In this document: piece by piece, positions 10,301 through 51,935 of the stretch
Numbering within the stretch: the stretch's first letter is position 1
Layout of the letters: each line of letters begins with the position of its first letter
Source of the DNA: Botryllus schlosseri
Lineage: Eukaryota
Assembly: GCA_051294905.1 (NCBI GenBank)
Contig: CM119371.1
Span: 1,924,001 to 1,988,000, forward strand
Length of the DNA stretch: 64,000 nt
Direction of reading: 5' to 3'
The notes under the pieces: generated by a model
The model's input: only the letters and a program-made list of their open reading frames with translations
Told to the model about the DNA's origin: nothing
The model's database searches: none
Translations under genes and position numbers: made by a program

Positions 10301-13300
10301 TACCCCGAAAAAGGAGGAGAAGTCCTCATAAAAGAAGGCGTACGGTGACCCTATGTAAAAGATCTGCTCAAGTAGAATTTGAAGTAGTCAAAACATTGCC
10401 GCTTGAGTAAGTAGCGGAAGTAGGCAAAATTTATTTGAGTATTATGGAGAAGTAAAGTACTGGTTTGCTAACCACATCTATTAACGAGTCACTTACATAT
10501 TTCCAGAGTACATGGTTATTATGACAATTTCACTCATAATTTTAATGGAAAGTTACGAACTGCTTAATACTTTTCAGAATGCAAATTGTAACCAGTAAGT
10601 CGACTTGCCAAAAAATGCTCAAGTCGAAACGGAGAGACGACTACTTGCGTAAGTACTTGAACTATGTAAACTGTACTAACCCCATCCATGAAAAGACTAC
10701 TTTTCAGAGTACAAAACAGGTTATGGCAACTTACATTACTAGCCCAATTAGTTTCGATTTTAAGCTACTTCCATTTCTACTCGAACAGCTCCTTCACAAA
10801 TGCACATACTTTTCACGCATTAAATTTCTAAAAGCAGAAATTCAAAAGTAGCCACAACTGATAAACTGAAAAATATTTGCAAAACATCGACAAAAAATAC
10901 TTTTGAAAACTTTTTACTTGAGTACATTCCAGGCCTTACATTTTCAACTTTGAACAGGTGTTTTAAGAGCTAACTTTACTTGGAATTGTGTATAAATTCA
11001 AGCCATTACTTCTGCTTGGACTTGATTAGCGACGCTGACAACATTGACCACTTCTGCGTATACTCCAGACCGACTGGCAATATTATGAACGCAAGTTAAG
11101 TAGAAATTGACAGCACACGTTATAAATTGAAACTTGCATCTTACTGTACTGTGCATTCTCTTGTTACTAAAAATACCGAATTCGATATCATATGAGATTT
11201 TTGCATTATATGCCCTTATCAAAATAAGACCATATCCACTGTACTGAAATTGTAACATCGAGCCATGAAATTATGCCTTGAACCACAAAGCGAATTGACC
11301 ACCAGCAAACTACCCAACCATAATTATTATTAATTCAAGCGCGCTCAAGAAATCATTCGGTTACTTATTTTTGTTAGATATTCAGGTATTGATTACTGGA
11401 TTACCTACTGTAAGATGAAGTACATTTGAAAGTAGAAGCAAATAGAATGGTCGAATCGGTCAACCGTGATTCAAAGTTCAAATCTACAGCAAACACGAAA
11501 CTAAATAAATAGCATTTAAATAAAAATATATCTGTACCAGACCTTTTTTACTTTATACTCTGATAACTCCCGTACACCAGCCTGCTTGACATACAGTTCT
11601 TCAATCAATTTGACAAATTCTGCATTGAAGAGATTGATCAAAAATTCCACCGTCGCGAGGGAAACAACCATTTTGAATGATAGAGTGGATTCCTGCGAAA
11701 ATAAAGTGTTGCGAGTGAGGTCACAATCCACCAACAAGAAGCCCTAAGATATATGTGTGACTGAAGAATTTTATTTAAAAAATTCAAAAGAAATATCAGT
11801 GACTTGCAAACAGATAAAAAAAAGTCAACACGAGAAATTATTCCAACACCTCACACCGTGAGGGTTATAATACGATGTCTTCGAAAATTGTCAATTTGGC
11901 GCGCTGCCCGAAAAAATAACCGTCATACAGAGCACTCAAACACAAACTCATTGAGAAAGCGCAGCAGAATGTACAGCGTAGATAATACACATAGGAAATT
12001 AACACAATGAAAAAGCAATCAAGCAACCAAGCCAGTCAGATCGCTTTCGGCTTGCGTATCGTACGACCACTCGAGGTTAGCTTTACCATAGTGACTACTA
12101 CTGCATACTGCGGGCTAGGCGAAATAGTCGCGTTCTGAGAACATATCTTTGCAAACGAGTCACCTGAAATTGCGCACATGAACCACGTCACCGCTACAGG
12201 CATTATGTTGATCGAAACTTTTTAGAAAATATAGTCCGTCCACATCTATTTTGCGCCAAGCATGAAGAAATTTTGGACTCTGCACCTGAATATCTTTGTC
12301 TTGGTCTCTCTCTTCCCTTCTTCGTGAAAGTACATAATACTTCTACTTGATAATTTGTAAATAAGTAGGTAAATCTCAAAATATGACAGAGAACAAGTAC
12401 AAGTAGAGTGTCGGAAATAGGATTTACTTGTTTAAGTGCTACAAGTACGGGAGTACTTGAGTACTTCGGAAAAGTAGAAGTACTTGGTCATTGACAAATT
12501 CTTGGTTTGAATTAACAGAATATTTAAATTCGCTTCAACTCTTAATCACCGTGTCATTGTATTGGTTATTTCAATTGACCAAAGTTGAATAACGTTAGAT
12601 TCAAGGCTATTTGATTTGAGTAAACCAAGCAATTCGATTCCAAATCGCATCCCTTACAACGCTGTTTTATTATATCGAAGCAGAACTTTGCCCAGAATAT
12701 ACGTTGAATGCCCCCCCCCACTCCTACACACAATGATTCTGACAACAAAAATCTTCAAGTTCAGCAGGCCAAAAAATGACTTAGGAAATTATCACAAACT
12801 GTAAGCTTACTATTCCCTACAAAATTATCGCATCTTCAAAACGTTCATGATTACGTCATGAGCTACAGCTTGGCGATACTACACTGCGAGCTGATCGCTT
12901 CACGTGCCTAGCGTTGTCTACAGTTGCGCGCATAGTGAAGTCAGTGAAATGAGCGAACGTTCAATCCAATCAGAAGTATGGACTCGTTATCAAACTTGAT
13001 TCATCTTGATATCAAACCTTTATGTTGAAGTGCCCGTCAATAGTATCCTCAAAAAATATGTGACTTTCTCTTATCTTGATGACATCTTCTTCGTTCTTCA
13101 ATTCAACCCATTCTCCCCATTCTTCTCCTACAGTCATCTTGACAACCTGAATATTGTTCAGATGTGAAACTCGAGATCGTGCATTTTATCGATCATCCAC
13201 CGCCGTATCGCAGATACAGTGACGACCGAAGCATCACAGATCCTCATATGTTACACGTCATCGACACGGGTCACTGATTTTACCGGCGTTTTTGTCAGTG

Positions 13301-16300
13301 GCGCCATTTTGGTACATTTGCGACTCGATATCTCCGCAAACACTCGTTTATATGAGACATGAATTATATTGGCGACATCAGGAGAAAAAACTCTACGAAT
13401 CGAGACAAAGAAATTTTGGTCAATCTAGTCTAGTTGATCTTTAAAGCAAATCGTTAGCACCCGAAATCATATTCCTGTATTTACACGAATTCACGAGTGA
13501 ATTTCGTCTTTTGTTACGAGCGCGAAATTGGACAGTTTCCTGTTGTGAGCATGTAAATCTGAATTACATCATGGACATCATATTGACTCCTATATTACAA
13601 GGCAAACAAAACGCTGCATTCCAAAACGCTGTTATGTTCAGTAAAAACTTTTTGGATGCACACTTTGTTGATAAGGACTGGTACTTATCTGTTGCGCACC
13701 AACAATATCTACATGCACATTGCACACTCCAGAATTGTGACGATACTAGCAATGTTACTTGTTACTCACGCAGTGCATTTTTTAGCGGCACGCGGCGTTT
13801 GCTTGCGTAAATGGGACATAATTTGTCAAAATATTGATGCACAACTTGATCGCCGCCAGACTGACGGGTATCGATCACACCAATACCAAACTTCATTACA
13901 TTGCATTCATTACATTCATTCTCAATTCAGTAAAAAGCGGATTATTGTTCACGAGGTCAGCGCTCTTATTGTTGTCACTACCCTACATGATCCCCCATTT
14001 CACCAAATTCTATCACATAGCTCGATATCAATGACACAGTGCGGATAGTAAAACATCATATCAGTGGGTAAATACTGCACGGCTTAGGGATGAAAGCAGA
14101 GTGGAACTGTTAGAAAATATTCTTCAGAATTCACTGGCTATGTGACAAAATTGTTAGGTTGGTTGAAACACCGCTGTAAACCAAATTTGGCTTCAAGACA
14201 AACTAGTAGAAACAAGATTCTTGCTGTAAAAAGTTTTGAATTTATAATTAAAAAAAAATTCAAAGTTTTTCTTTCAACCCCATAAAATTGTTAGACAATC
14301 AGTAGTGATGATGCATACCAAATTTGGCTCGATTCCAACCGCTAGGAGCGAAGTCATTGCCGTAGTAAAATTTCCAATTCCATGATTTTATAGGAAATAA
14401 TTATAGCTTTCAATACAACATCCATTGTAGTACAATATTTAAACTCAAATACTTTCCGGCACTTTAAAGGGATTTAAATGGATTTAGAAGCAAAACCAAA
14501 TCTGTTTAACTCCCTTCAGTGTGCCGTTAACTCTTGAAAGAGGCAAGAAAAAAGTCTTCGAGGTTAATAAATATTCTACTACAATGGATTTTGTATTGAA
14601 AGCTATATTCAAGTTCTGTACCACGAATCAGCTATTTGAATAAATAATTAAAGAGCTAGCAATAACTTCGCTTCTAGTGGTTGGAGTTGAGCCACATTTG
14701 GTGTGTATCGTCTCTAGTGACAGCCCAACAATTTGACGTTGTTGACTGAAAAATTTTAAAATTTAATTTTTTGATGATCAATCCAAAATTTTTTACTACA
14801 AGAAAATCGCTTCTACTGATTGCAATTGACCCAAAGTTGGCGTGCAACGTTGTGGTTGGTTGCCAACCTAACAATTTTATAAGATAGCCGAAGAAATCTG
14901 AAGGTTTTTTGAACAGCCCTGATGCAGAAAATGAATGTATATTGCTTTCTATCACGACTATGGCGTCACAAATCACGTGCGATTGTCACGTCACAAGTAT
15001 CCGCATACCCACATAAAATCATAGTGACTTGTTAGTACAAAACTAAATCATAGAATCGATCTTACTTCCCAATCCAATTTTCCAGATAGTGATTCAATCC
15101 GACGATGCCCAAGAAGTGAACGTAGCGCTGTTGCTGGGACTTCGTTGTGCCGCAAATCCACTTCCTTCACCTGGAACGATTGAAATATTTTATGAAACGT
15201 TGAAGAGAACTAAGTGTGAAAATAAGTATGAAATAAAGTGACAAAAATTAAATCACTTGAGCCGTAATCTATTTAGGTTACTGTCGGTGGATCTTCGATA
15301 TAGCCTTAGATCATGCTATCGGTATTATCACATTCGCTGTCGGTTTGTACACCCGGAATATGAGTCATTTCCAAATATTCATAATTATAGAGCGCCCTAT
15401 AGTCGATATGTAGTCGATTATCGCAGATAGGCCTACTATAGTAGTCCTATTCGTGATTTAAATATGTGAAGCTCGTCACGAAACGTATCTTTTTGGGCAT
15501 GGCGACAAGTCACACTTCTCGAGGTGATTATCGCTTTCGCGCATTCGATATCGTTTCTGCATCCGATAAATTCATATAGATCAAAATCAATATCATTCCA
15601 TATTCCGACAGACGAACGATCAACTTATACACACGGCTCATCGTGTCGCTAGCGAGATTGCAATCAAATTGAACTAATTCCTTTCGGAATGGTATCGGAA
15701 TTGATGATGAATAGGGCGATTTTTTTAACTGAATAACGCGAGGATTTTGACCTGAAAAATCAAAATTTTGACATTTTTTTAACTTAAAAAACTTAATTTA
15801 GACAAAGTATTGCCCCTATGTATGTAAATTAGGTGTTTTCGCACATATTGTTATAATTGTACTACTTATCATCAATTTCGGTTGGAGCTGTCTTCCTTAC
15901 GAAGTAGTTTGAACTGAAAAAAATTTTGACTCAAAAACTGACAAATTTTTACAGGAAAAACTTCATTTTAACGAAATCCGGACCTATGAAGAATTCCTAG
16001 TTACATCACGCATTATGATAGAAATAATTGAAATGTGTTGTAGTACATCCAAAGATACTTTCCTACATTCCCGGGTATAAAGTGTCTGTCCATACCTAGT
16101 AGCTTGTCAAGAATGGAGAACGAACGTTCAACAGCAGGAGCTGGCAACACTGAAGTTGGGCGTACACTGCTGGTGAGAGAGCGTGTTGCTTCATTCTGAC
16201 AATGTTGTCTATATCGGCATTTTTATTTTGTGCGCTTCTTGATATAAGAACCAATGCCCACGCAGTCTTGCTTCCGTTAGGATATTGCGGTACGTTGAGC

Positions 16301-19300
16301 ATAACACCATGTCAACCTGTTTGTTTCATTTGACCGCTTATGATTCACAATGAGCAGACAATGGACCGTCGACAATGGTAGGTCTATAAAGTAAGCTACA
16401 AGATGTAAAATGATAAGTTCACCGATAGTGCAAACATCTACGATACAAACGAATCGCAAAAAAAATTGAATTTGTAAACAACTTTGACAATTTTTATACC
16501 TGACGCTACAATTTTAACAAAATATTATCCTGTCGCCCTAATAGTCATAAAATATGTTGACTAGTCAGTTGGTACAGTACTTCGTTACTGTCCATGTCAA
16601 CCTCTGATGTAGATACCGAATACCAGTACCAGCACCACAAGAGAAAACGAATTAGCACAGTCCATAATTACACAACCGAGAACTCACATCTGATACATCA
16701 GACACCATTGTCTTACAAAACTGATCGCTTGGATGAAATTTGATCGCGCGAGAAAACATAATCAGCATGGATCAACTGAAACCCTGACGTTCGACGAAGC
16801 CGTATATTGTTACTTTTAATGTTATCGCTGTCAATATTACTGAATTTGGCTGGGCAGAAGTGACGAATAACACTGGTCAATATAATGAAAAAAAAATTTT
16901 GCAGGACATCTTCGAGGTTACTGATTACGAATATCAAATTCGTTTTTTCCAGATTGACCTCAGTTTGGAAAATACTTATACCCCTGAAAAAGGCCCAAAT
17001 TACTGTATTTACCCTCTAAATATTTCACTTGGTAATAAGTAAATCACAGCGTTTTTACTTTTATACTGCCCTTAAATAGAGAATAGACAATGAAGAACGC
17101 TCATGTCGTCCTCAGTTATTCATTCAATATGAGCATGACCTGCTGTGAGATCTTTGTTTGTTAAACAAGCAGTTTGTCAAGCCTAAGAATTGTACTTTTG
17201 CACAACAGAACCTCTTGAGTAAGTAGTGCAAATAAGCAGAATTTGTTTCAGTACTTCGGAAAAGTAGGTGGTCAATATGACAATTCCACTTATAAAATGA
17301 TGAAGACTTATCCAAACATAAGGTTACCATACGTTCTTATTTTTGAGGTTTTTGAAAATGTCCTCCGAGGACGCTCTATTTTGGCTGATAAATGGACTGA
17401 GGCTATACAGTTTTTTATAGGTAGTTTAGCAGTTCTACGCATGCGTGTGCGGTCTGACGTCTTTTTGCATGTTTATTCAACTATAGAGCTCATTCGTCCC
17501 TCCATTCAAAATATATGACAACTTTCAAACAGCTATCAGAACGCAATACATGCCTCGTACTGCAAAAAATCAACTTGACTTGGATTGTGACTTGAATCGT
17601 GGCTTGACTTGACTTGACTCGAGTCATCTCAAAAAATCGAGTGACTTGACTTGAGTCTAGTCAAAATATGCAATGACTCGACATGACTAGTGACTCGAAG
17701 GTAGTGACTTGATCCCAACACTGATATGATTTGAAAAGGTAAAAGTAGTTTCATGATAGGCTTGTATAACTTTGATGGAATCTTCATGAGAAATCGCCAT
17801 CAACGTAACTGTTGAATCCATTTTTCACGATTGTTCCTACTTGCGACGCTACTAATCATTATGCGTTAGACGCCTCTTGCAATTTAAGAAGTAGCCACAG
17901 CCGATACTCCGCCGAATATTTGCGGTCCCTCCACCGAAACTATGTTCAGAATTACTTACTTGAGTACTTTTCCGACCTTTAGTTAGCTACTTCAACTTGA
18001 AGTAGTTTTACAACACTTGTAAGCAGTTGATTTTACTTGTGATTGCACATTAGGAGCGTTTAATCTTACAGGTTACCTGATAAAATTGTTACGTCACCTA
18101 ATTAAAGGCTGCACACCAAATTTGGGCCAATTTTAACCAGTAGCCGCATTGCTACAAGAGAAGAAAGTTTTATATTTATTTTGTAAAAACATATAAAACA
18201 ACGAAAATTTTCTGTTCACCCCATCATATTGCTAGATTTTGTACAGAAACGTTGGTCAGGAAATTTGGCTCATTTACAACCAGTGGAAGCGGAGTTATTG
18301 CAGTTGAAATATTTGGATTTGAATAAAATAGTATTTGCGGTGCCTAGGTTATCATTTTATTCATATGCAGCCATCCATCATGGGATTTTGAAAAGTAGAA
18401 AGTAGTTTTATGACACGTTTGTATCACTTTGATGTGTGAAATTGTCATAGGAAATCGAAATCGCCATGAACGTAGCTGTTGAATCTTCTTTTCAAGATTG
18501 TTGCTACTAATGACGCTACTAATAATTTCGCGTTAGTCGCAGACACTCTTCTTGCAATTTCGAAAAGTGGCCACATCCGATGAACTGCCAAATATTCGCT
18601 AATTCTACCTGTAATAGGGTACAAATTTACACCAACCCTTCAACTTTGACTCGATTAGCCTAGGCTGACTACTTGGACCACTTGTGCGTGCATTCGAGTC
18701 TCGGCTAAAAATATTGGAGACGCAAATTCAGTAGACATTGGGAATAAAAGTTTTAAGTTGAAACATGCGTCTTACTGCACTGCGCATTCTCTCGTCACTA
18801 AAATATCAAATTCAATATCTTATCCGCCTTTCGTATTAATTGGTCCTATTAACACGAAGGAATTAGTAAAACACCATATTCCGCACTACTTGCATTGCAA
18901 CAGATGAATTATTATAAATTCAAGCGCGCACAAAAATGCGTTCCGTTACTTATTTTTGTTGGATATTCAGATATTGATTGCTTGATTACCAACTGGCAGG
19001 TAGGGTACAGATGAAAGTAGAAGATAATCAAACAGTGGAATCGGTCAAGAATGAATCAACATTGACCTTTACAGCAAACTTAAAACTATGTAAATTGTAT
19101 AGAAAAAATAACTGTAACCAACCTTTTCTATTCTATACTCTGATATCTTCCGCAAACCAACCTCTTGGGCGACCAGTTCTTCAATCAATTTGACAAATGT
19201 TGCATCGAAAAGGTCGCCGACATATTTCAATGCTACCGCGGAAACCGTTTTGAAAGATAGACTGGAATCCTGTGAAAATAAAGTGTTGTCAACTACGTCA

Positions 19301-22300
19301 CAATCATCCAACAACAACCCTGAGATATACGTCCAAGCATGAGACATGAATCATGACTACTGCGGACAAGGCGATGGGATCGCGTTATCAAAACATATCT
19401 TGCGAAAAGAGCAGACTGAATTTGCCTGCATGAACCACGAATCCGTTACATGAATTATATTGACCTAGACATTCGTGGAAATATATTACTCCCTTCACAT
19501 CTATTTTGCTCGAAGCATAACAAGGACCCTCCCAAAAACAGCTCTTCATCTTGGTCCCTCTCTCTCTCTCTCTCTCTCTCCCTCGCTCGCTCGCTCTCTC
19601 TGTCTCTTATTGGAAGTACGTGATACTTTTCCATTGTATTGCAATCGTGTAGTTATATGAATTAAATAAATTTTAAGATAATTTATTTTGATATATTTGA
19701 ATTGAGAAAAATTAACTATTCGATTCCAACTCGCACTGGTAGGCACGATAATGATGGTGTCAAGTATAAATATTGCTTGTCTGTTGAAAATTGCGATAAA
19801 ATAACCGCAATCCATCGATTTTTAATGGATGTAATCGAAAATCCTGAATGTACTTGAAAATCGACGTACAGTGTCGACAATTTTTTTTTGAATAAATTTC
19901 AGTAGGCAAAAAACTCATTACTTATAATAATAATAATAATAATAAGTTGTTATCTTACTATTCTCAACAATAGCATCTCGTCTTCATGACGCTCATGCTT
20001 ACGCCATAAGCTACAGACTGGCTATACTAGACCGAAAAGCCATCGCTTCACGTGTCTAGTGTTGTTTATAGCTTGATGCATAGTAAAGTCAGTAAAATGA
20101 TCATAATTTTAGTACAATCATTAGTATGAACTCGTTATTGAAGTTAAATTATCTTGATATCCAACCTTGATGTCGAAATGCCCTTCCATCCCGCCACTTA
20201 TCTTGATGACATCTTCTTCATTCTTCAGTTCAACATTTCGTCCATCTACACTCAGCTTGACAACCTGAATATTGTTCACATGTGAAACTTGATATCGTGC
20301 ATTGTATCGCTATTCCAACAAATATCTTGACGTCATATCACACATATAGTGACGACCGCAGCATCACAGATCATCATCCGCTATACGTCATCGACACGAG
20401 CTACTGATTTTACTGGCGTGTATGCTGGTCGTAGCATTTTGCGACATTTGCGATCCGGAATCCCCAAAAACACTCGTCTATATGACGTAAGAAGTATATT
20501 GGCAGAATCAGGAGAAATATTATACCGATTTATACACCCGAAAGCGCCCGAAACCGTATTCCTGCATTTAAACGAATTCACGAGCGATTTTAGTATTTTC
20601 AATCGGAACGCGAAATTGGACAGTTTGCCATTGTGAGCATGTATTTCAAAATAATATGGAAACCATGGTGACTCCTATAATACAGAGCAAATAAAGAAAT
20701 GAAGCCCAGAACGTTGTTATAATCAGCAAACAATTTTGCGATGCGATGTCAGACCTCATTGTGGTGGCCTATTACTAATCAGATGTGCGTTTTCGTGATC
20801 AAGAGATCGTCAGTTGCGTACTACTTGATGTCGACATGCGCACTTCGGCATTGCCGCGATGCTAGCAATGCTACTTGCTACTTACGCACAGCGTTTTGCA
20901 GTGGCACGTGGCGTTTGCTTACCTAAAAGGGCCTTGGTTATTCAAAATATCGATGCAAGTATTCTGAATCAATTCTGTTTCTTGACCGGAGACGTGATGC
21001 GCTCCAATAAACTTGATTGCCAGAAAACTGTGTGGTATCGAACACATCAGTATCGAATTTCAAATAATTGGATAAATGAGGTCGTGACATGCGCTCAGGT
21101 GTCGTTTCGCTGCCTTTACGCTACGTAATCCACTATTTCACTAAAGTCGATTGCATGCATTGGTACTAATTAGACAGAGCGGATATTAAAATGTCGAATA
21201 AGCGGTTAAATACTGTACGACTTGTGAATGGGATGTATACAAATGTGTTCTCGCTCGACTATGACGTAAGCGATCATGAGCGATTGTAACGTCACAAGTC
21301 TCCGCAACCCACATAAAATTATAGCTGCAGTTAGTACACAACTAAATCCTAGAATCGATCTCACTTCCCAATCCAATTTTCCAGATAGCGATCCAATCCG
21401 ACGATGCCCGAGAAGTGAACGTAGCGCTGTTGCTGAGACGTTGCCACGCAAATCCACTTCCTTCAGCTGGAACGATTGAAATATTTTATGAAACGTTGAA
21501 GAGAACTTAGTTTGAAAATAAGTATGAAATAAAGTGACAAAAATAAAATCACCAAGCCGTAATCTATTTAGGTTACTGTCGGTGGATCTTCGATATAGCC
21601 TACATTACAAAGCGATATTCGTAGATCATGATATCGGTAATATCACATTCACTATGGGCTTGTACTCAGGGAATATGAGTGATTTTGAGATTTACATAAT
21701 TGTAGCGCGTCCAATAGTCGATAGGTAGGCCATTATCGCAGATACAATCGTAGACCTATCCGTGATTCAAATATGTATTCAAAAACGTATCTTTTTCGTG
21801 CTCGGCGACAAGTCACACTTCTCGGGGTGATTATCGTTTTCGCGCATTAGATATCGCTTCTGCATTCGATAAATTCACACCGATAAAAATCAAAATCATT
21901 CCATATTCCGACAGACGAACGATCAACTTTTATACAAACGGCTCATCGTGGCACTAGCGAGATTGCTGTCCGATTGAACTAATTGCTTTCGGAGTGGTCT
22001 CGAAATTAATGATGACTAGGGAGATTTTTTTACCTTATTAGCGCGAGATTTTGACCTGAAATTTCAAAATTTCGACGTTTTTTTAACTTAAAAAACTTGC
22101 GTACACTGCTGGTGACACAGCGTGTTGTTTCATTCTGACAATGTTGTCTACATCGCAATTTTATTCATGCGCTTCTTGATATAAGAACCAATACCCACGC
22201 AGTCTTGCTTCAGTTAGGATATTGCGGTACGTTGAGCATAACACCATTTCAATCTATTTGTTTCATTTGACCGCTTATGATTCACAATGAACAGTCAATG

Positions 22301-25300
22301 AGACGTCTACAATGTCAGGCCTAAAAAATGGGCTACAAGATGTAAAATGATAAGCTCACCGACAGCGCAAACATCTACGATACAAACGAAATGCAAAAAC
22401 TTTTTGACATTGCAAACAATTTTGACAATTTTTATACCTAACGCTACAATTTTAACAAAATATTGACCTTTTTTGCAATATCAAAAAATCGCCCTAGTCA
22501 TAAAATATGTTGAATGGTCTTGAATAGTTGGTACCACCTCTGATGTAGATACCGAATACCAGTACCAGCACGACAAGAGAAAACGAATTAGCACAGTCCG
22601 TTATTGCACACCCGAGAACTCACATCTGATACATCCGACACCATTGTCTTACAAAACTGATTGCTTGGATGAAATTTGATCGCGCGAGAAAACATAAGCA
22701 GCATGGATCAACTGAAACCCCGACGTTCGACGAAGCCGTGTATTGTTACTTTTAATGTTATCGCTGTCGATATTACTGCATTTGACTGGGCAGAAGTGAC
22801 GAATAACACTGGTCAATAAAATGAAAAAAAAATTTTTGCAGGACATCTAAGAGTCATTTCTGGGGTTTTCAAGGTTACTGATTACGAATATCAAATTCGT
22901 TTTTTCAGATTGACTTTAGTTTAGAAAATACTTATACCCCTGAAAAAAAAGCCCAAATTACTGTATTTACCCCCTAAATATTTCACTTGGTAATAAGTAA
23001 ATCGCAGCGTTTTTACTTTTGTACTGCCCATAAATAGAGAAAAGACTATGAAGAACGCTCATGTCGTCCTCAGTTATTCATTCAATATGAGCATGACCTG
23101 CTGTGAGATCTTTGTTTGTCAAAAAAAAACAGTTTGTCAAGCCTAAAAATTGTACTTTTGCACAACAGAACCACTTGAGTAAGTAGTGCAAGTAAGCAGA
23201 ATATGTTTGAGTACTTCGGAAAAGTAGGTGGTTAATATGACAATTCCACTTATAAAATGATGAAAACTTATCCTAACATAGGGTTGCCATACGTCTTCCT
23301 TTTCGAGGTTTTTGAAAATATCCTCCGAGGACGCCAAAATGTCCTCTTTTATTGGCAAATCGTCCTCCTTTATAACTTTTACAGCTAAGATAATGTATAG
23401 ATTTGAGTGAAAATGGGCATAAATGACGCTAAATAGGAAATTCGTGATTCGATCGAAAGTAACGATATTTTTTTTTAGTCAACCCACCAAATTAATTTTT
23501 AAATAGGCTGGTGCATTGCATCATACCGATTCGTTTCAATGTTTTTAGGTTTCGTATTCTATCCTCTCATTTGGCTGATAAATAGACTGAGGCTATACAG
23601 TTACTTATAGGTAGTTTAGCAGTTCTAAGCATGCGTGTGCACTGTGCAGTATGACGCCTTTTTGCATGTGTATTTAACTGTATAGCTTATTCGTCCCTGC
23701 AATCAAAATAAATGGCAACTTTCAAGCAGCTATCAGAACGCAATGACATAATATATGCCTCGTACTGCGTAAAATCAACTTGACTTGGATTATGACTTGA
23801 CTCGTGACTTGACTTGACTTGACTCGAGTCACCTCCAACGATCGAGTGACTTGACTTGACTCGAGTCACCTTCAAAAATCGATTCACTTGACTTGAGTCG
23901 AGTCAAAATATGCAATGACTCGAGATGACTCGTGACTCGAAGGTAGTGACTTGATCCCAACACTGATATGATTTTGAAAAGGTAAAATTAGTTTTATGAT
24001 ACGCTTGTATGACTTTGATGCGTGGAATTTTCATAGGAAATCGCCATCAACGTAACTGTTGAATCCATTTTTCACGATTGTTCCTACTTGCGACGCTACT
24101 AATCATTATGCGTTAGACGCCTCTTGCAATTTAAAACGTAGCCACAACCGATAATCCGCCGAATATTTGCGGTCCCTCCACCGAAACTATTTTCAGAATT
24201 ACTTACTTGAGTACTTTTCCGATCTTTGGTTTGCTACTTCCACTTGAAGTAGTTATACAAGACTTGTAAGCAGTTGATTGTACTTGTGATTGCACATTAG
24301 GGGCGTTCAATCTTACAGGTTACTTGATAAAATTGTTACGTTACCTAATTAAAGGCTGAACACCAAATGTGGTTCAATTTTAACCAGTAGCCGCATTGCT
24401 ACAAGAGAAGAAAGTTTTGTATTTATTATGTAAAAATATATAAAACAACGAAAATTTTCTGTTCACCCCATCATATTGCTAGGTTTTGTGCAAAAACGTT
24501 GGTCAGCAAATTTGGCTCATTTCCAACCAGTGGAAACGGAGTTATTGCAGTTGAAATATTTGGATTTGAATAAAATAGTATTTACGGTGGCTAGGTTATC
24601 ATTTAATTCATATGCAGCCATCCTTCATGGGATTTTGAAAAGTAGAAAGTAGTTTTATGACACGTTTGAATCACTTTGATTTATGAAATCGTCATAGGAA
24701 ATCGAAATCGCCATCAACGTAACTGTTGAATCTACTTTTCAAGATTGTTGCAACTAATGACGCTACTAATAATTTCGCGTTAGTCGCAGAGACTCTTCTT
24801 GCAATTTCGAAAAGTGACCACATCCGATGGACTGCCAAATATTCGCTAATTCTACCTGTAATAGGGTACAAATTTACACCAACCCTTCGACTTTGACTCG
24901 ATTAGCCTAGGCTGACTACTTGGACCACTTGTGCGTGCATTCGAGTCTCGGCTAAAAATATTTGAGACGCAAATTCAGTAGACATTGGGAATAAAAGTTT
25001 TAAGTTGAAACATGCGTCTTACTGCACTGCGCATTCTCTCTCGTCACTAAAATATCAAATTCAATATCTTATCCGCCTTTCGTATTAATTGGTCCTATTA
25101 ACTCGAAGGAATTAGTAAAACACCATATTCCGCACTACTTGCATTGCAACAGATGAATTATGATAAATTCAAGCGCGCACAAAAATGCGTTCCGTTACTT
25201 ATTTTTGTTGGATATTCAGATATTGATTGCTTGATTACCAACTGGCAGGTAGGGTACAGATGAAAGTAGAAGAAAATCAAACAGTGGAATCGGTCAAGAA

Positions 25301-28300
25301 TGAATCAACATTGACCTTTACAGCAAACTTAAAACTATATAAATTGTATAAGAAAAATAACTGTAACCAACCTTTTCTATTCTATACTCTGATATCTTCC
25401 GCAAACCAACCTCTTGGGCGACCAGTTTTTCAATCAATTTGACAAATGTTGCATCGAAAAGGTCGCCGACATATTTCAATGCTACCGCGGAAACCGTTTT
25501 GAAAGATAGACTGGAATCCTGTGAAAATAAAGTGTTGTCAACTACGTCACAATCATCCAACAACAACCCTAAGATATACGTCCAAGCATGAGACATGAAT
25601 CATGACTACTGCGGACAAGGCGATGGGATCACGTTATCAAAACATATCTTGCGAAAAGAGCAGACTGAATTTGCCTGCATGAACCACGAATCCGCTACAT
25701 GAATTATATTGACCTAGACATTCGTGGAAATATATTACTCCCTTCACATCTATTTTGCTCGAAGCATAACAAGGACCCTCCTCAAAAACAGCTCTTCATC
25801 TTGGTCCCTCTCTCTCTCTCTCCCTCGCTCGCTCGCTCTCTCTCTCTCTTATTGGAAGCACGTAATACTTTGTTTCATTGTATTGCAATCGTGTAGTTAT
25901 ATGAATTAAATAAATTTGAATATAATATAATTTTATATATTTGAATTGAGAAAAATTAATTATTTAATTCCAACCCGCACTCATCTCACTGGTAGGCACG
26001 ATAATGATGGTGCCAAGTACCGCTTACTGCCACAATAGCGTTTTACATAAATCAAAGCAAAAATGCTTCCAGAATATACCTTGAACGCCCCCGCCACCAC
26101 CACATAATATTTCGGTGAACAGTTCAGAATATTTAAAAAATATTGCTTGTCTGTTGAAAATTGTGATAAAATAACCGTAATCCTTCGATTTTTAATGGAT
26201 GTAATCGAAAATCCTGAATGTACTTGAAAATCAAAGTACAGTGCCGAATTTGTTTTCTAAATTCAGTGGGCAAAAATCTCGTTACTTAGAAAATCATCAC
26301 AAGCTGTAAGCTTACCATTCTTAACAAAAGCATATCGTCCTCATGACGCTCATAATGACGTCATAAGCTACAGACTGGCTATACTAGACCTCAAAGTCAT
26401 CGCTTCGTGTGCCAAGTGTTGTTTACAGCTTGATGCATAGTAAAGTCGCTAAAATGACTGCAATTTCAGTCCAATCATTAGTATGGACTCGTTATCGAAG
26501 GTGAATCAACTTGATATCCAACCTTGAAGTCAAGGTGACCTTCAATCCCGTCACCACTTATCTTGATGACATCTTTTTCGTTCTTCAATTCAACATCCCC
26601 TCCATCTACAGTCAGATTGACCACCTGAATATTGTTTACATATGAAACTTGAGATCGTGCATTGTATCGCTATTCCACCAAATATCTTGACGTCATATCA
26701 CACATATAGTGACGACCGCAGCATCATCGATCATCATCTGCTATACGTTATCGACACGGGTCACTGATTTTACTGTCGTTTATGCTGGTGGTGGCCTTTT
26801 GCGACAATTGCGACCCGATATCCCCGAAAACACTCATTTATATGAGATAAGAAGTATATTGGCGGAATCAGTTATTTTGGTCAATATAGTTGATCGTAAG
26901 CACCCGGAACCGTTTTCCTGCATTGACACGAATTCACGAACGATTTTTATCTTTTTAATCGGAGCGCAAAATTGGACAGTTTGCTATTGTGAGCATGTAC
27001 TTCAAAATACCATGAACATCACAGTGACTGCCATAATACAAGGGAAACAAAACATTGCAGTCCAAAACGCTGTTATAATTAGGGCTGGGCACAATGATTC
27101 GAGTGTTCGAATCTGAATCGAGTATTAATTTTAATGATTCAAGTCGAGAAGTAAAAGATGATTTTTTGGAGTACCGAAATCATGCGTTCGTCGACACTGA
27201 AAGTTACTTATTCATCAGAATTGTAGTTTTGACAGCATTTTCCACTTTGTAAGCCCTGAGACCATGATTGGTCGCATAACAGCATATGAAACATATTGGA
27301 CAAAGCTATGAACGTATAACATATTTCCAAAGTCAGGATCATCCCACAACAATACCACAAACGGAACCGCAATGAAATCGGTATGTTCGAAATATACCGA
27401 AGTATCTTTAACGTGATTCATAACAACAGTCATTATATTATTTGTGGTGGCAAAAAAGGTACATATTTGAACTTTGACATATTACATTCTGTTATGACGT
27501 CATAAGAAGTGATACTCGAATATTGGACTCGACTCAAAGCTTAGTACGTGATTCAGAATCGAATCACTCAAATACTCGATTCTGCCTAGCCCTATAGTTA
27601 TGATCCGGGAGTATTTTCGCTATGCGATGTCAAACTCATTGTGTTGGCCTGAAAATCAGATACGCACTTTGTTGATTAGGAGTAATATTCTGTTGCGCAT
27701 TAATTCATGTCGACATGCACACTCCTGAATTTTGACGATGCTAGCAATTTTACTTGTTACTCATGCAGGGCATTCTGCAGCGGAACACAGAGTTTGATTA
27801 CGTAAATGTAGCTAATTTGTCAAAATATCGATGGACAATTTGATCACCGCCAGACTGATTGATCACACCAATATCGAATTTTACTGCATTGCATTCATTT
27901 GATTCATTGCCAATTTACTAGAGAGCGGATTTTTGTTGACGCTACATAGTTAACTATTTCACTAAATTCGATTACATAGCTCGATATTAATGACACAGTG
28001 TGGATATTAAAACATCATATCAGTGGGTAAATACTGTACATCTTTGGGATGAATGCAGAGTAGGGTCGTTCAAAAATTTTTTTCTTCAGATTCCACTGGC
28101 TATGTGATAAAATTGTCGGGTTGGTTAAAACAACGCTATAAACCAAATTTGGCTCAAGTCCAACCAGTAGAAGCGAGATACTTGCTATAGAAAGTTTTGA
28201 CATTATCATTAAAAAACACACAAAAAAAGCCAAAATTTTTTTGTCAACCCCAAAAAATTGTTAGGCTATCAGTAGAGATGATGCATACCAAATTTGGCTC

Positions 28301-31300
28301 AATTCCAACCACTAGAAAGGAAGTTATTGCAGTAGAAAAATTTCCAATTCCATGATTTTATAAGAAATAATTATTGCTTTCAATTCAACATCCATTGTAG
28401 TGCAATATTTAAACTCAAATACTTCCCGGCACTCTAAAGGGATTTAAATGGATTTAGAAGCAACACCAAATCTATTTAACTCCCTTCAGTGTGCCGTTAA
28501 CTCTTGAAAGAGGCAAAAAAAAGTCTTCGAGTTTAATAAATATTCTACTACGATGGATTTTGTATTGAAAGCTATATTCAAGTTCTGTTTGAATAAATAA
28601 GTAAAGAGTTAGCTACCTTAAAACTGTTTTATTCGAATCCAAATTTTTCTACCACAATAACTTCGCTTCTAGTGGTTGTAATCGAGCCACATTTGGTGTG
28701 CATCGTCTCTACTGACAGCCCAACAATTTTATGTTGTTGACCGAAAAATTTTAAAATTTAATTTTTTTAATGATAAATCCAAAATTTTCTACTGCAAGAA
28801 AATCGCTTCTAGTGGGTGCAATTGACCCAAATATGGTGTGCAGCGTTGTTTTCGCCAACCTAACAATTTTACAACATATCCGAAGAAATCTGAAGGTTTT
28901 TTGAACAGCCCTAATGCAAAGAATGTATGTATAATGCTTCCTATCGCGACTATGGCGTCTCCAATCACGTGTGATTGTCACGTCACAAGTCTACGCATAC
29001 CCACAGTGGCTTGTTAGTACACAACGAAATCATATAATCGATCTCACTTCCCAATCCAATTTTCCAGATAGCGATTCAATCCGACGATGTCCGAGAAGTG
29101 AGCGTAGTGCTGTTGCTGAGAAATTATTGAGACGTAAATTCACTTTCTTCACCTGTAATGATGAATGAAATATGAATACAATGTCTTCCAATATCATGTC
29201 AAACCAACACAACTTTGCACAGACTTATTCAGGGCATATTATGGAAGCTGAGTATGTTCAACATCATTGCGATCCCCATAATAAAAGCAAACGACCCTAG
29301 GTTTAGAGCCACGGTCTTTTACTAATCCATTCAAACGGCTTCAATCAATTCTAGGAATACACCGTACTCTATAATTAAGATTATGATTTGATTTCAGTGA
29401 ATCATGGCTAATTTTAGTAACTATAGATTTCATTTTTGCGAGCGAGGCGGCAGCAGTAGGATTAACTGTAATTTGTAATTGAGCTGCATGTACTTACTTA
29501 ATTTTTTCATGTTATTTTAATTGTCATTGAAGCATTTCTATTCCGTGCATTGTAATTGTAATTTGATAAAAATTATACTAATTACAATTTCAATAGCATT
29601 GTTATTGAAACCTGACAATCACAACATGAAATAATTAGCCCATTAACATGGGTGTTCTATGCGTACCTTGTTAACTAATTCAGCCATACTAAACTGTTTC
29701 CCATAGGCCAACTTCAGCCCGAACAGAAAACTTGGTGAATTACAATATAGACTATTGAACAAAATGTTACTATTTCATAAATGGACGAAAAGAAAAGAAA
29801 CTCTTCTGTAACCTGTGCTGAACCATTTCCTACACCACGGTCAGTGTTTTTTTTTTTAAATCTCCTTCCAGTACTGAGTCTTGCTGCAGCAATTGCAAAA
29901 AGAAATTCAAGTTTTCAACCAAGACTTCATCACGCTTGATCACACATTTGTAGAGATGTTATCCCAGTCTTACCTCCTATCTTAGCTTAATTTACTGGGG
30001 CCAGAAACTTTCCGCATCCTAATGTTCATCAAATGCAGTCGAACAGTTTGGAGCAAGTGAAAATGTAACTGCGAACCAAAATTTTGTAATTGGTACTTAT
30101 GAGAAGCTTCTTTACTTTTGCATTTATTTTAATCTCACACACATTATCGGTATCATCCTTATTGCCTTACCAATTACATTTCATTCACCTTACTCAGCTC
30201 TGAGTATTAGTTCGAGTACATTTCATTGACTGTCTTGTATCCTATTCGCTATTAGTCGTTGCCAGTCGCTCGAACTGTTGATTGTTAGTAGTAGCTCATA
30301 AAAATTTTATTTTTTCATATTTTTCAGAGCTCATGATTAGGAATACTTTGAATAAGTTCAAGTTTGTTTTTTTTTCTAATTAAAGGGTATTCTACGTAAT
30401 ATGAATCATGAATGAAACATGAATAGCTTGAGATTGTTGCTAAATACGCTGCTACAGTTGTTAAAGAGCACCTCTCTACCGAATCAGTCAGACTTTTACA
30501 AGTAATTGTAATTATAATTGTACTGACTTACATGTTTAACAGTAATTGTTATTGTAGTCGGTGTTCTAAAGACTCGAGTTACGGTTTCCTGATGACTCGA
30601 CTTGACTCGAGTCATTTTTGCAAAATTCCGAAATCCCTCGACTCAACTCTAGTCAATCTGTGTATTGACTCGACTTGGACTCGATTTATTACCCATGACT
30701 CGAACCACGTCATATGACTCGAGACTCAGACGGCCAAGATCGTCATTTTATTGTAATTTCAAAGAATAGTTAAGTGACCACACAATTGTGATTTCGTCTA
30801 TGGGTACTGGTACTTGAAGATGCGACCAGAAACTGCTTCAAGTGAGGAAAATTAATATATTATGAATGCGAACCATTCGATATCAACAAACTGGGTTATA
30901 ATAAGTGGGTTACCAAGACGTTAACCGGAATTTGAGCCGTCAACATGATGACTTGGACTCGAGTCATAATGCCATGACTCGGACTCTGATCGCTGACTGG
31001 GACTCGGTGATGAATACAAAATGACTGGACTTGACTCAAGTCAAAACTATGAAAATGAGATTAACTCGTTACTCGGAGCCTCGGTGACTAGGTTAAAACC
31101 CTGATGGTGGTTGGAATTTGATATTTTTAGCATAGACTAATTGTAATCATATGTAATTAAAACATGCAATAAATTAATTGTAATTGAAATTGAATTGAAT
31201 TACTGCGGAGGTGGCCCTATATTTAATTTATTACAAAGTGCCAAGAAGAAATTTCAGTAGCATAAATCTGCTATTATTGTTTATGTTTATATGGAAAAGA

Positions 31301-38279: not shown

Positions 38280-39076
38280 CCGTAATTTTCCATGTATAAT
38301 GCGCAAAGTTTTACCGATTTTCTGCCCTAAAATAGGGGGGTGCGTATTATACATGGGTACAACAAGCCTTGAAAAAAGTCTCCCTCAATCAAAAACTTGA
38401 AATCACACCTTTCGTCATGTCTGTTTCCGATCGCGCATTACCTCTAGCCATCGTGTCCCGTAATTCGTATTATTGAGTGTAACGCACTGCCAAATAGAGA
38501 AGCGTGTTGCCGATTGACGGAAAGCGTGTTGCCAAATAACGAGAATCGTCTGCACAGCGCCTCCTGAGTTAGTTAGCCGTTTGTACGCGAGCAAAATTAG
38601 GTTGCTGATTGCTACAAGCGTCCGCGGCAATCTTTGCAGTTTCATCGCGTCAACAACAGGCCTTAACAATCGCATACACAAGAGGCCATGTGCGCCAGAA
38701 ATAATCGCTGGCGTAATGAGTCGCATCTCCAACAGGACTGGTGCGCCCGACAAAACCGTTGGCCTGAGCAATCACATATGTAATTGTCGTGTGTCGCTAG
38801 CCTGAACTATCGCGTCGCCGGCTTTGGCTACAATCTACTCTCATTTAGAGACAATGCCGGTAATTGTATTATCATTCGCAATGGCTATGTCATGAATTTT
38901 GGACAGTGACATCGCAAAACAAAACACCATCGTGTACTGAATCACAACTTATCATGCACTGTGAATGCAGCGTGCGTACTATACATGGGTAGCCTACAGG
39001 CTTTTTCCAAGAATTTACATGCCATTTTAAGGGTGCGTATTATACATCGGGGCCCAACATATTCGGAAAATTACGG
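38280..39076. mobile_element. Second, inverted copy of the 6517-7349 element
   Basis: Same CCGTAATTTTCC termini; ORF-track peptides 6852 and 38415 are homologous. Confidence 0.8.
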
Positions 39077-39449: not shown

Positions 39450-39735
39450 GTGGCGATTCGCCTGGAAACCCGGGGTGGCGATTCGCCTTTTTATACCCCC
39501 CCACTCTGGGCCGCGATTCGCCATGTGTTCTTATGGGTGCGGTCGTGATTCGCCTTTTCGGGTATAGGCTGCGGCGGTGAGGTGCCTGAAAACCCGGGGT
39601 GGTGACTCGCCTTTTTTGCTATAGGCCGCGGTCGTGATTCGCCGTGAAAACTCGTGGTCGTGACTCGTCTTTTTTGCTATAGGTGGTGGCGGTGATTCGC
39701 CATGTGTTCTTATGGGTGCGGTCGTGATTCGCACT
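39450..39735. repeat. GC-rich subterminal array of the (G)TGA(T/C)TCGCC / GCGATTCGCC motif (mirror at ~59895-60180)
   Basis: Motif recurs about every 25-30 bp (one longer gap); ~39-bp direct repeat at ~39515 and ~39694. Confidence 0.85.
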
Positions 39736-39829
39736 TTCTGCCATCTCTCGCGTGGTGTTGAATAGTCACCAACAATAACCGCACAAACGGAAACGTGGCT
39801 TGTAAGAGGATTTACGCAGTGCGTGCGAC

Positions 39830-42262: not shown

Positions 42263-42556
42263 CGTGCGACCTATATTCCGAATGACCTGCGCGCTGAATT
42301 GTTTCCGTGCAGCCGTGTGCTACTATCGATTATTACACTATTCCATTCAGTGCGAAATAGTTTGATCGTAAATTATTATATATGATATCGTAGTTTAGTC
42401 GTGTCAAATGTCCGATCGTGTTCTCTTTCCTCGCTATTGATTGCTAGCTGAATAATACTTTCGGCTTATTCACACCGCTGTTTCGCGCGTACAAAATAGT
42501 CTGCTGTTCACAACCACAACAAGAATCACAATTATACACATTTATACATTCATTTA

Positions 42557-42796
42557 TTACTCTGAAATCAAACTCTTCACAAAAGCACGCACAATCGTAT
42601 CATTCACTTTTTTATCATCACCAAAATTATTCAAGTATTCCTTGGCTGAAAATCCTTGAGCTCTTTTTATCAAGAATGCAATAGCATGATCTCCACACAC
42701 ATCCGAAGTTTTACTCTGTAACTGTTTCCCAGTCACAGAAAATTCATCCGGCTCCAGGAATTCGATTATCTGAGGTTTTAGTGGTCCGTGTGTCAA
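42557..42796 (-). pseudogene. Mirror copy of the adenain-like protease fragment
   Basis: Peptide identical to 59276-59515. Confidence 0.7.
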
Positions 42797-51709: not shown

Positions 51710-51935
51710 AACAAACCCCTTTTCCTTTGGAAATATATTTTTTCCCTGGGTTACAAACCTTTTTCACTTGGAAATATATTTTTTCACCGGGTAACAAACC
51801 TTTTTCACTTGGAAATATATTTTTTCCCTGAACAACAAACCTTTTTCACTTGGAAATATATTTTTTCTCTGGGTAACAAACCTTTTTAACTTGGAAATAT
51901 ATTTTTTCCCTGAGCAACAAACCATTTTCACTTGG
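51710..51935. repeat. 41-bp minisatellite (GGAAATATATTTTTTC core); mirror at ~54600-54785
   Basis: Five core copies in the left arm and four in the right; degenerate copies flank both. Confidence 0.9.

What the first reader, a model, noticed from the sequence alone, without database searches (positions are those of the whole stretch)
11543..29152. NLR with a tandemly triplicated, phase-0 three-exon LRR cassette
Seen: exons W, X and Y each occur three times in the order (W-X-Y)x3 between the post-NACHT exon and the terminal exons. All nine have AG/GT boundaries, lengths divisible by three (105/102/147, 102/99/147, 105/129/150) and no stops, while the flanking introns accumulate indels and MITEs. 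Inference: a modular ligand-sensing region that can grow or shrink by unequal crossing-over, and whose exons can be skipped without frameshift. This could be a receptor-diversification system in an invertebrate NLR. The ORF track shows only fragments of it.
Basis: partly seen in the sequence, partly recalled or inferred. Interest (0 to 1): 0.8.

Follow-up and report, generated by a model that had tools for sequence, protein, structure and literature searches.

The report
Tunicate NLR gene with triplicated exon cassette
An innate-immune NLR-type gene, probably from a sea squirt, has had a block of three small in-frame exons copied three times in a row, which is a real but fairly ordinary way for such receptor genes to lengthen their repeat region.

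Summary
On the minus strand, nine exons sit at exactly the stated coordinates. All have AG/GT boundaries, are phase 0 and open, and have the stated lengths. They lie in a 6.3-7.7 kb genomic segment copied three times in tandem, introns included.

Coding constraint is real:
- All exon indels are multiples of three, against 18 of 72 intron indels.
- A neutral 20-23% divergence keeps the frame open in only 1-3% of simulations.
- Nine RNA reads join a W donor to an X acceptor at the predicted sites, though from variant copies.

The gene is an NLR: NACHT scores 9.5e-15, and all named relatives are Styela clava NLR-like proteins at 34-37% identity.

Three things are not shown. First, that X and Y are leucine-rich repeats: no Pfam, relative or PDB match is significant, and only W shows weak LRR signals. 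Second, that this locus is transcribed. Third, that any exon is skipped.

Frame-preserving modular repeat exons in NLRs are already described. This is a new member of a known kind. The hypervariable, always in-frame start of exon X is the one feature worth following.

The parts
36154..37593 (-). NACHT exon (1440 nt). Candidate acceptor ccag|AA at 37593 (phase 1); donor GAAG|gtgagt after 36154 (phase 1). Walker A GSGKTT and Walker B LFFDGLDQ are present. At least one upstream exon carrying the start codon was not found.
   Evidence: ORF 37627-36125 of 501 aa. Pfam NACHT 9.5e-15. 36% identity over 437 aa to a Styela clava NLRC5-like protein. Boundaries read from sequence.
33715..34022 (-). Post-NACHT exon (308 nt). 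It starts in phase 1, so the junction codon G|TC matches the NACHT exon donor, and ends in phase 0 at CTT|gtgagt. It encodes the end of the helical domain and a first LRR-like turn (LKSLDLYDCKI).
   Evidence: Sequence read. tblastn hits from 8 relatives at E 1.4e-7 to 6e-3. Pfam LRR_1 E 0.066, below the cut-off.
29048..29152 (-). Exon W, copy a (105 nt, 35 aa, phase 0).
   Evidence: This donor is used in 9 junction reads.
26523..26624 (-). Exon X, copy a (102 nt, 34 aa, phase 0).
   Evidence: The 3' part is matched by 3 junction reads whose 5' part is a shorter in-frame variant.
25372..25518 (-). Exon Y, copy a (147 nt, 49 aa, phase 0).
   Evidence: One amino-acid difference from copy b.
21365..21466 (-). 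Exon W, copy b (102 nt, 34 aa, phase 0).
   Evidence: Carries a 3-nt in-frame deletion relative to copies a and c.
20166..20264 (-). Exon X, copy b (99 nt, 33 aa, phase 0).
19123..19269 (-). Exon Y, copy b (147 nt, 49 aa, phase 0).
15066..15170 (-). Exon W, copy c (105 nt, 35 aa, phase 0).
13018..13146 (-). Exon X, copy c (129 nt, 43 aa, phase 0). It has 9-nt and 18/21-nt in-frame insertions relative to copies a and b.
   Evidence: The 3' part is matched by 6 junction reads.
11543..11692 (-). Exon Y, copy c (150 nt, 50 aa, phase 0). It is 46-48% identical in protein to copies a and b.
9164..9256 (-). Predicted penultimate exon (93 nt, 31 aa, phase 0; acceptor tcag|ATA, donor CAA|gtacga).
   Evidence: Sequence read. 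Supported only by the ORF and splice sites, with no homology or RNA support.
8840..9031 (-). Predicted terminal exon (63 codons plus a TAG stop at 8842-8840).
   Evidence: Sequence read. The C-terminal cap HMM built from 11 Styela relatives does not detect it.
21467..29152 (-). Genomic repeat unit a: W_a, X_a, Y_a, their introns, and the intron leading to W_b.
15171..21466 (-). Genomic repeat unit b.
   Evidence: Identity to unit a is 68-92% by block.
10839..15170 (-). Genomic repeat unit c. It is partial: homology to units a and b runs about 600-700 nt past Y_c and then stops.
   Evidence: Identity to units a and b is 67-86% by block.
24735..25927 (-). Tract of 96-99% identity between unit a and unit b (the partner is 18488-19683). 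It covers exon Y and its flanks and is embedded in sequence of 76-95% identity. It is a likely recent gene-conversion tract or a younger duplication layer.
   Evidence: Sliding 200-column identity. Repeat family D5 at 99% over 300 nt.

Best explanation
This is a germline NLR (NACHT-repeat) gene on the minus strand, probably of an ascidian. It runs from about 37.6 kb to 8.8 kb of the window. Its C-terminal repeat region was lengthened by tandem duplication of a genomic block that carries three phase-0 exons, W, X and Y, which together encode 116-128 aa.

There were at least two duplication layers. Copy c split from the a/b lineage long ago (about 20-23% exon divergence). Copies a and b are younger (about 8%). 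A roughly 1.2 kb tract around exon Y was homogenised or duplicated most recently.

The copies have stayed protein-coding: splice sites are kept, no stops have arisen, and only in-frame indels occur. Purifying selection is weak (dN/dS 0.36-0.76).

I infer that the encoded region is an irregular leucine-rich-repeat-like solenoid. One canonical turn starts each W, and a second likely turn straddles the X/Y junction. As in other NLRs, the region would serve as the sensing or autoinhibitory arm. The first 10 or so residues of exon X are a hot spot of in-frame length and sequence variation.

Shown: the anatomy, the duplication, the coding constraint, the NLR identity, and use of the W donor and X acceptor in transcripts of close relatives. 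Inferred: the link from the NLR exons to the cassette, the LRR fold, and the function.
For: - Anatomy and duplication: the nine exons have conserved AG/GT sites and phase 0. Whole-unit tandem homology includes the introns. There are exactly three copies of each exon in the window.
- Coding constraint: exon indels are all multiples of 3, in 9 of 9 pairwise gaps representing about 5 events, against 18 of 72 intron gaps. The frame stays open in only 0.9-3.4% of 5000 neutral simulations per setting, and the 12 splice-site bases would survive with p about 0.05. dN/dS is 0.36 (a-b), 0.56 (a-c) and 0.76 (b-c).
- RNA: 9 reads from 2 of 4 runs join position 29048 to an X exon exactly at the predicted donor and acceptor (6 reads 13106->29046, 3 reads 26596->29046). 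The letters in between translate in frame as two further X variants (frames worked out by hand).
- NLR identity and exon linkage: NACHT scores 9.5e-15. The NACHT-to-post-NACHT junction is consistent in phase 1, and the post-NACHT exon ends in phase 0 inside the repeat region, where relatives continue with LRRs.
- Weak LRR signals for W: the local alignment to Styela relatives extends about 20 aa across the 33715|29152 junction into W_a (gain +12 to +14; 3 to 8 of 200 shuffles, p 0.015-0.04, for 5 of 15 relatives). The three best PDB hits of the W profile are the NLRP1 LRR domain, though E is 0.7. hhalign places W residues 1-21 on the LRR strand of relatives' units (E 0.02-0.05).
- Family context: Styela relatives carry runs of near-identical 55-58 aa LRR units. 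Proteins 91% identical to each other differ by 165 aa, which equals three units. Tandem unit expansion is therefore a family habit.
Against: - No read joint links 33715 to 29152 (33715 lay outside the laid stretch). No joint was listed for X->Y, Y->W or Y_c->9256.
- In all four RNA runs, of which only 6-13 in 100 reads were sampled, the bins holding the unit-b exons have depth 0 to 0.17. About 98-100% of laid reads fit only partly, on intronic repeats. Transcription of this locus is therefore not shown.
- The 9 junction reads differ from the reference in the first 28-40 nt of X, so they come from another allele or a paralog.
- The W-X-Y module has no significant match to 216 relatives and NLRC5 proteins (blastp, hmmsearch). 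It has no match to Pfam exon by exon, nor to any 232-2000 aa protein in the 5.8-billion collection (W region).
- The family's C-terminal cap and its 55-aa LRR unit are not found anywhere in the window.
- Exons are no better conserved than alignable intron at the nucleotide level (a-c: 0.777 against 0.817).
- Only one clear LxxLxLxxN motif occurs per 116-128 aa module.
Confidence: 0.65

Rival explanations
1. The cassette is an active diversification device. Cassette number varies between haplotypes by unequal crossing-over. Individual phase-0 exons or whole modules are skipped in splicing. Together with the hypervariable start of exon X, this yields a repertoire of receptor isoforms.
For: All twelve exons downstream of the NACHT exon end in phase 0, so any combination stays in frame. 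Mosaic identity between units suggests continuing exchange. There are five different in-frame versions of the first part of X: three genomic and two in transcripts. Styela relatives that are 91% identical to each other differ by three 55-aa units. Skipping of LRR exons is documented for human NLRP3 (PMC6642158).
Against: No skipping joint was seen, and no population or haplotype data were available. The two variant X forms may simply belong to fixed paralogs. Overall dN/dS is below 1.
Confidence: 0.15
2. The W-X-Y array and the two terminal exons belong to a separate, unannotated minus-strand gene downstream of the NLR. The NLR transcript would then end soon after the post-NACHT exon.
For: W, X, Y and the terminal exons show no significant similarity to the C-termini of any NLR relative. 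No junction read ties 33715 to 29152.
Against: The post-NACHT exon ends with a strong GTGAGT donor in phase 0, in the middle of the repeat region where relatives continue. No start exon or other domain was found between 33.7 and 29.2 kb. W begins with an LRR-type strand that extends the alignment to relatives across the junction.
Confidence: 0.1
3. The locus is a silent or decaying gene copy. The cassette copies were once coding, but the constraint seen is historical, and the expressed W-X-bearing transcripts come only from paralogs elsewhere.
For: Depth on the unit-b exons is zero or near zero in all four RNA runs sampled, and the junction reads do not match the reference X sequence. dN/dS reaches 0.76 for b-c. 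Exons are not better conserved than alignable introns.
Against: All 13 predicted exons are open with intact splice sites. The 501-aa NACHT ORF has intact Walker motifs. Only a small sample of each run was read, and the tissues are unknown.
Confidence: 0.1

Closest known systems
Styela clava NLR-like family, e.g. XP_039254800.1 (P0153), XP_039262562.1 (P0104), XP_039255371.1 (P0142) and the NLRC5-like protein P0001
   Same: The NACHT exon is homologous at 34-37% identity over about 430-470 aa, and the post-NACHT helical/first-LRR exon also matches. Their C-terminal regions are likewise built from tandem, nearly identical repeat units, and unit number differs between close relatives.
   Different: Their units are 55-58 aa double LRRs with clear LRR_6/LRR_1 signals and a conserved C-terminal cap. 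Here the unit is a 116-128 aa block encoded by three different exons. It has no detectable similarity to those units or to the cap.
Modular, frame-preserving LRR exons of vertebrate NLRs (human NLRP3 and others; Hoss et al. 2019, PMC6642158; abstract and passages read)
   Same: The repeat region is split into short exons that all preserve the frame, so that loss or gain of exons keeps the protein in frame.
   Different: In that case each exon is a repeat of one kind and of LRR-multiple length, and skipping (NLRP3 exon 5) was shown experimentally. Here three unlike exons form the repeating unit, the LRR nature of X and Y is unproven, and no skipping was observed.
Zebrafish NLR-B30.2 family (Howe et al. 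2016, PMC4852459; abstract and passages read)
   Same: It is a lineage-specific NLR expansion in which the number of LRRs varies between genes (0-6, with 'extensively duplicated' C-terminal LRRs in one group). Gene conversion shapes parts of the genes.
   Different: It is a fish family with a Fisna domain and a B30.2 domain as the likely recognition module. The paper reports its LRRs as not particularly variable.
Exon shuffling of LRR/TPR exons in brown-algal candidate receptors (PMC3341825 and PMC11378527; search listing and start of abstracts only)
   Same: Repeat-encoding exons behave as duplicable, shuffleable modules in candidate immune receptors.
   Different: These are unrelated organisms and unrelated NTPase families (NB-ARC, ROCO). 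I did not read these papers beyond the listing.

Membership tests
NLR (NACHT-domain STAND NTPase with C-terminal repeats) | NACHT NTPase domain with Walker A and Walker B motifs | tested here: met
   Pfam PF05729 at E 9.5e-15 and 55.3 bits against a cut-off of 26.7. GSGKTT and LFFDGLDQ are visible in the ORF.
NLR (NACHT-domain STAND NTPase with C-terminal repeats) | Winged-helix and helical domains following the NACHT domain (NOD2_WH, NLRC4_HD2) | tested here: inconclusive
   NLRC4_HD2 scores 20.1 bits against a cut-off of 33.1, and NOD2_WH scores 15.3 against 23.1. The region aligns along its full length with Styela relatives, which carry the same sub-threshold or just-passing signals.
NLR (NACHT-domain STAND NTPase with C-terminal repeats) | C-terminal leucine-rich-repeat domain | tested here: inconclusive
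   The post-NACHT exon scores LRR_1 at E 0.066, 13.8 bits against a cut-off of 20.6. None of the W, X, Y or terminal exons hits an LRR model. Weak signals exist for W only. The strict LRR motif count is 4 against a shuffle mean of 1.18, p 0.029.
NLR (NACHT-domain STAND NTPase with C-terminal repeats) | N-terminal effector domain (Death, CARD, PYD and the like) | tested here: inconclusive
   tblastn of 800+ aa relatives, one of which has a Death domain (P0062), finds nothing upstream of the NACHT exon. The first exon was not located.
Modular frame-preserving LRR exon arrays (as in human NLRP genes) | Every repeat exon preserves the reading frame | tested here: met
   All nine cassette exons and the next exon are phase 0 to phase 0, with lengths divisible by 3.
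Modular frame-preserving LRR exon arrays (as in human NLRP genes) | Each exon encodes a whole number of LRRs of one repeating type | tested here: not met
   Three dissimilar exons of 33-35, 33-43 and 49-50 aa make up one unit. Only one clear LxxLxLxxN motif occurs per unit.
Modular frame-preserving LRR exon arrays (as in human NLRP genes) | Alternative inclusion of repeat exons in transcripts | tested here: inconclusive
LRR solenoid fold | Predicted or solved structure is a curved solenoid of beta-strand/helix turns | not testable with these tools
No database protein carries the module, so no fold was run.

The most novel reading that the evidence does not exclude
W-X-Y cassettes define an unannotated, expressed subfamily of tunicate NLRs. 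In this subfamily the start of exon X is a germline hypervariable loop. It changes by in-frame indels and substitutions, with five versions already seen among three genomic copies and nine reads. Cassette number and composition differ between haplotypes or paralogs through unequal crossing-over and gene conversion. The result would be a combinatorial repertoire of sensing surfaces on a non-canonical repeat fold.
Probability: 0.2. Interest if true: 0.6.

Novelty: new member of a known kind. Interest (0 to 1): 0.3.

Why it matters
The finding documents, at the level of introns and exons, how an invertebrate-chordate NLR lengthens its repeat arm. A whole genomic block was duplicated in tandem, part of it was later homogenised, and the reading frame was strictly kept throughout. 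That fits the general picture of NLR evolution and does not change it.

Two points have some further value. First, the repeating unit is a three-exon block with almost no detectable LRR signature, and automatic annotation would miss it. No protein in the collections searched carries it. Second, the first part of exon X is a hot spot of in-frame variation, which is a candidate ligand-contact site that can be tested.

Tried and rejected
- The window's own genome is not held, so paralogs could not be located.
- The look-up of sequencing runs: no RNA holder listed.
- Read laying was allowed once and for 20 kb only.
- Searches that found nothing:
  - BLAST and HMM searches of the spliced module, made inside scripts, against 204-216 session proteins.
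  - Pfam on each exon.
  - The ESM Atlas with exon Y: no usable hit.
  - The W region against 232-2000 aa proteins.
  - Profiles of X and Y against PDB sequences: only chance-level hits such as ribosomal protein S5 at E 0.029.
- HMMs of the Styela C-terminal cap and of the 55-aa LRR unit found no exon in the six-frame ORFs of the window. My by-eye resemblance of the terminal exon to that cap was therefore dropped.
- hhalign of the X-end/Y part to the 58-aa unit of Styela relatives gave E 0.35. This is a lead only.
- Earlier-findings look-ups were empty.
- A megablast of an intronic repeat against phage records was uninformative and ill-chosen.
- Rejected readings:
  - An assembly artefact: the units differ by 8-25%.
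  - A transposon-borne exon set: the copies are confined to the tandem array.
  - A longer Y exon using the upstream 'ttag' acceptor: it is in frame only in copy c.
- I did not fold the spliced product, and I did not send the exons as separate chains to the complex predictor.


Full report
**What is there.** The finding lies on the minus strand. A 501-aa open frame at 37627-36125 carries a NACHT domain (Pfam PF05729, E 9.5e-15, 55.3 bits against a cut-off of 26.7). Walker A (GSGKTT) and Walker B (LFFDGLDQ) motifs are visible in the translation. Reading the sequence gives a candidate acceptor at 37593 and a GTGAGT donor after 36154, both in phase 1. The next exon, 34022-33715, begins in phase 1, so the junction codon is completed correctly. 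It ends in phase 0 at CTT|gtgagt.

Both exons are homologous to a large set of ascidian proteins. The best named hit is a Styela clava 'NLRC5-like' protein, at 36% identity over 437 aa of the NACHT exon and E 3e-8 for the next exon. The exhaustive representative search gave 506 proteins at E<=1e-3 and 81 at E<=1e-30. All eight full-length representatives I looked up, and their five other listed cluster members, are Styela clava proteins. The nearest relatives, at 40-52% identity, are unnamed single-exon ORFs from public assemblies. The organism is therefore probably a tunicate. This is an inference, and no genome is held for the window.

**Check of the observation.** I scanned every AG...GT/GC interval with a length divisible by three and no stop around each candidate.
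- W: 29152-29048, 21466-21365, 15170-15066 (105/102/105 nt).
- X: 26624-26523, 20264-20166, 13146-13018 (102/99/129 nt).
- Y: 25518-25372, 19269-19123, 11692-11543 (147/147/150 nt).

tblastn finds three copies of each exon in the 64 kb window and no fourth. Downstream lie a 93-nt phase-0 exon (9256-9164) and a terminal exon (9031-8843, with a TAG stop). The exons were not duplicated alone. Repeat finding and pairwise blastn show that whole introns are copied with them, giving units of 7.7, 6.3 and about 4.3 kb (the last is partial). Block identities are 68-92% for a-b and 67-86% for a/b-c.

**Is it more than chance?** Copies a and b are young (exon identity 0.919), so their open frames prove little. 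Copy c differs from a and b by 20-23% in the exons, and three tests apply to it.
- Indels. In MAFFT alignments of the homologous blocks, 18 of 72 intron gaps are multiples of three. All 9 pairwise exon gaps are (3, 3; 9, 18, 3; 3, 9, 21, 3), and these represent about five events.
- Open frame. Random substitution at 20-23% leaves the 118-128-codon frame open in only 0.9-3.4% of 5000 trials per setting.
- Splice sites. The twelve splice-site bases of a unit would all survive with p about 0.05.

Nei-Gojobori dN/dS is 0.36 (a-b), 0.56 (a-c) and 0.76 (b-c). At the nucleotide level the exons are no better conserved than alignable intron: 0.777 against 0.817 for a-c, and 0.807 against 0.737 for b-c. 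The picture is of sequence that must stay translatable and spliceable but is otherwise free to change.

**History of the array.** Identity between units a and b is mosaic. It is 76-90% around exon X, 96-99% over about 1.2 kb that includes exon Y (25927-24735 against 19683-18488), and 87-96% in the following intron. Units a and c share a W-to-X intron segment that unit b lacks. This fits repeated unequal crossing-over or gene conversion better than a single event.

The introns also hold interspersed repeats present at two different positions per unit (families D3, D11 and D19). One MITE-like element has 40-nt inverted ends at 28372-28411 / 28537-28576.

**RNA evidence.** No indexed run on record as RNA holds the gene (this has no evidential weight). 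I laid four raw bulk RNA-seq runs of the same species label (X9, X11, X13, X14; two studies) on 9160-29159 at 92% likeness, reading only 6-13 in 100 of each run. Of the 950, 194, 799 and 1114 reads laid, 942, 194, 793 and 1104 fit only in part. They pile up on intronic repeats.

The results against expression of this locus are as follows.
- The bins holding the unit-b exons have depth 0 to 0.17 in all four runs.
- No joint was listed for X-to-Y, Y-to-W or Y_c-to-9256.

Two joints are informative. One is 13106->29046 (2 reads in X13 and 4 in X14, with 29 letters between). The other is 26596->29046 (3 reads in X14, with 11 letters between). Read on the minus strand, both are a W exon ending exactly at 29048, followed by an X exon that begins with the conserved GTTGTCAAG. 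After 31 or 13 nt this X exon rejoins the reference X_c or X_a sequence in the same codon phase. It is 9 nt shorter than X_c in the first case and 15 nt shorter than X_a in the second (worked out by hand).

These nine reads show that the predicted W donor and X acceptor are used in vivo. They come from another allele or from paralogs, not demonstrably from this locus. They also add two more in-frame versions of the first part of exon X to the three genomic ones.

The following searches found nothing significant.
- None of the nine exons, nor the two terminal exons, hits any Pfam family at E<=0.1. The post-NACHT exon gives LRR_1 at E 0.066, below the cut-off.
- The spliced module, joined only inside scripts, has no BLAST hit below E 0.1 and no meaningful HMM hit among 204-216 relatives and NLRC5 proteins.
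- HMMs of the Styela C-terminal cap and of the 55-aa LRR unit find no exon in the window.
- The W region finds no 232-2000 aa protein in the 5.8-billion collection.
- The ESM Atlas gave no usable hit for Y.

Weak positive signals concern W.
- The alignment of the post-NACHT exon to Styela relatives extends about 20 residues across the junction into W_a. The gain is +12 to +14, reached by 3 to 8 of 200 shuffles (p 0.015-0.04), for 5 of 15 relatives. For W_b and W_c the results are mostly non-significant.
- The three best PDB hits of the W profile are the NLRP1 LRR domain, at E 0.7.
- hhalign places W residues 1-21 on an LRR strand of the relatives' units (E 0.02-0.05, probability 1-2%).

A strict LxxLxLxxN-type motif occurs 4 times in the predicted 499-aa C-terminal region, against a shuffle mean of 1.18 (p 0.029). 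It occurs at the start of W_a and W_c; W_b matches only the loose pattern, which is not enriched (8 matches against a shuffle mean of 5.68, p 0.19). hhalign also hints at a second LRR straddling the X/Y junction (E 0.35).

My reading is that each module is an irregular block of about four turns with one or two canonical strands. I hold this at roughly even odds. The fold could not be predicted, because the structure tools take only contiguous translations or database proteins, and no database protein carries the module.

**Comparison with what is known.** Frame-preserving, modular LRR exons are described as a general property of human NLR genes and as the precondition for alternative splicing such as NLRP3 exon-5 skipping (PMC6642158; abstract and passages read). 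Zebrafish NLR-B30.2 genes vary in LRR number (0-6), have groups with extensively duplicated LRRs, and are shaped by gene conversion (PMC4852459; passages read). Brown-algal receptor candidates shuffle LRR exons (PMC3341825 and PMC11378527; listing only).

Within the same protein family, Styela clava relatives show runs of near-identical 55-58 aa units. Two proteins that are 91% identical differ by 165 aa, which is three units.

The present locus differs in three respects. Its repeating unit is three unlike exons. That unit lacks a recognisable LRR signature and is absent from every protein collection searched. The first part of exon X is a hot spot of in-frame change. None of these takes it outside the known kind.

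**Verdict.** The LRR identity of X and Y, expression of this locus, and exon skipping remain open. It is a new member of a known kind, and interest is modest.

Noticed in passing
window 39491-60140: A very large inverted-repeat complex lies just upstream of the NLR gene. Its arms are 42258-46393 / 55679-59814 (4136 nt, 100% complementary), 49292-50184 / 54794-55686 (893 nt, 100%), 51755-52604 / 53929-54778 (850 nt, 97%) and 39491-39830 / 59801-60140 (340 nt, 97%). It is either a true ~20 kb palindrome or a fold-back assembly artefact.
   Followed up: partly
window 61479-63794 (+): A non-LTR retrotransposon remnant. The ORF at 62473-63393 hits Pfam RVT_1 at 6.2e-32. Adjacent ORFs in other frames suggest frameshifts.
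   Followed up: partly
window 38415-38771 (-) and 6810-7106 (+); 39531-39842 (-) and 59753-60100 (+): ORF-bearing repeats with near-identical translations occur on opposite strands on both sides of the gene. They have no Pfam hit. They are probably dispersed repeats or part of the palindrome.
   Followed up: partly
window 14120-14373, 18055-18314, 24302-24561, 28082-28343: An interspersed repeat of about 250 nt is present in two different intron positions of the cassette (families D3 and D19). RNA reads from elsewhere in the genome pile up on such intronic repeats, for example 23834-24500, 27080-27131 and 16403-16450.
   Followed up: partly
Styela clava proteins P0079 / P0221 and the cluster of P0062 (P0217-P0219): Proteins at least 90% identical to each other differ in length by whole repeat units (1104 against 939 aa; 1400, 1184, 967 and 963 aa). 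This suggests copy-number variation of LRR units across this ascidian NLR family.
   Followed up: partly
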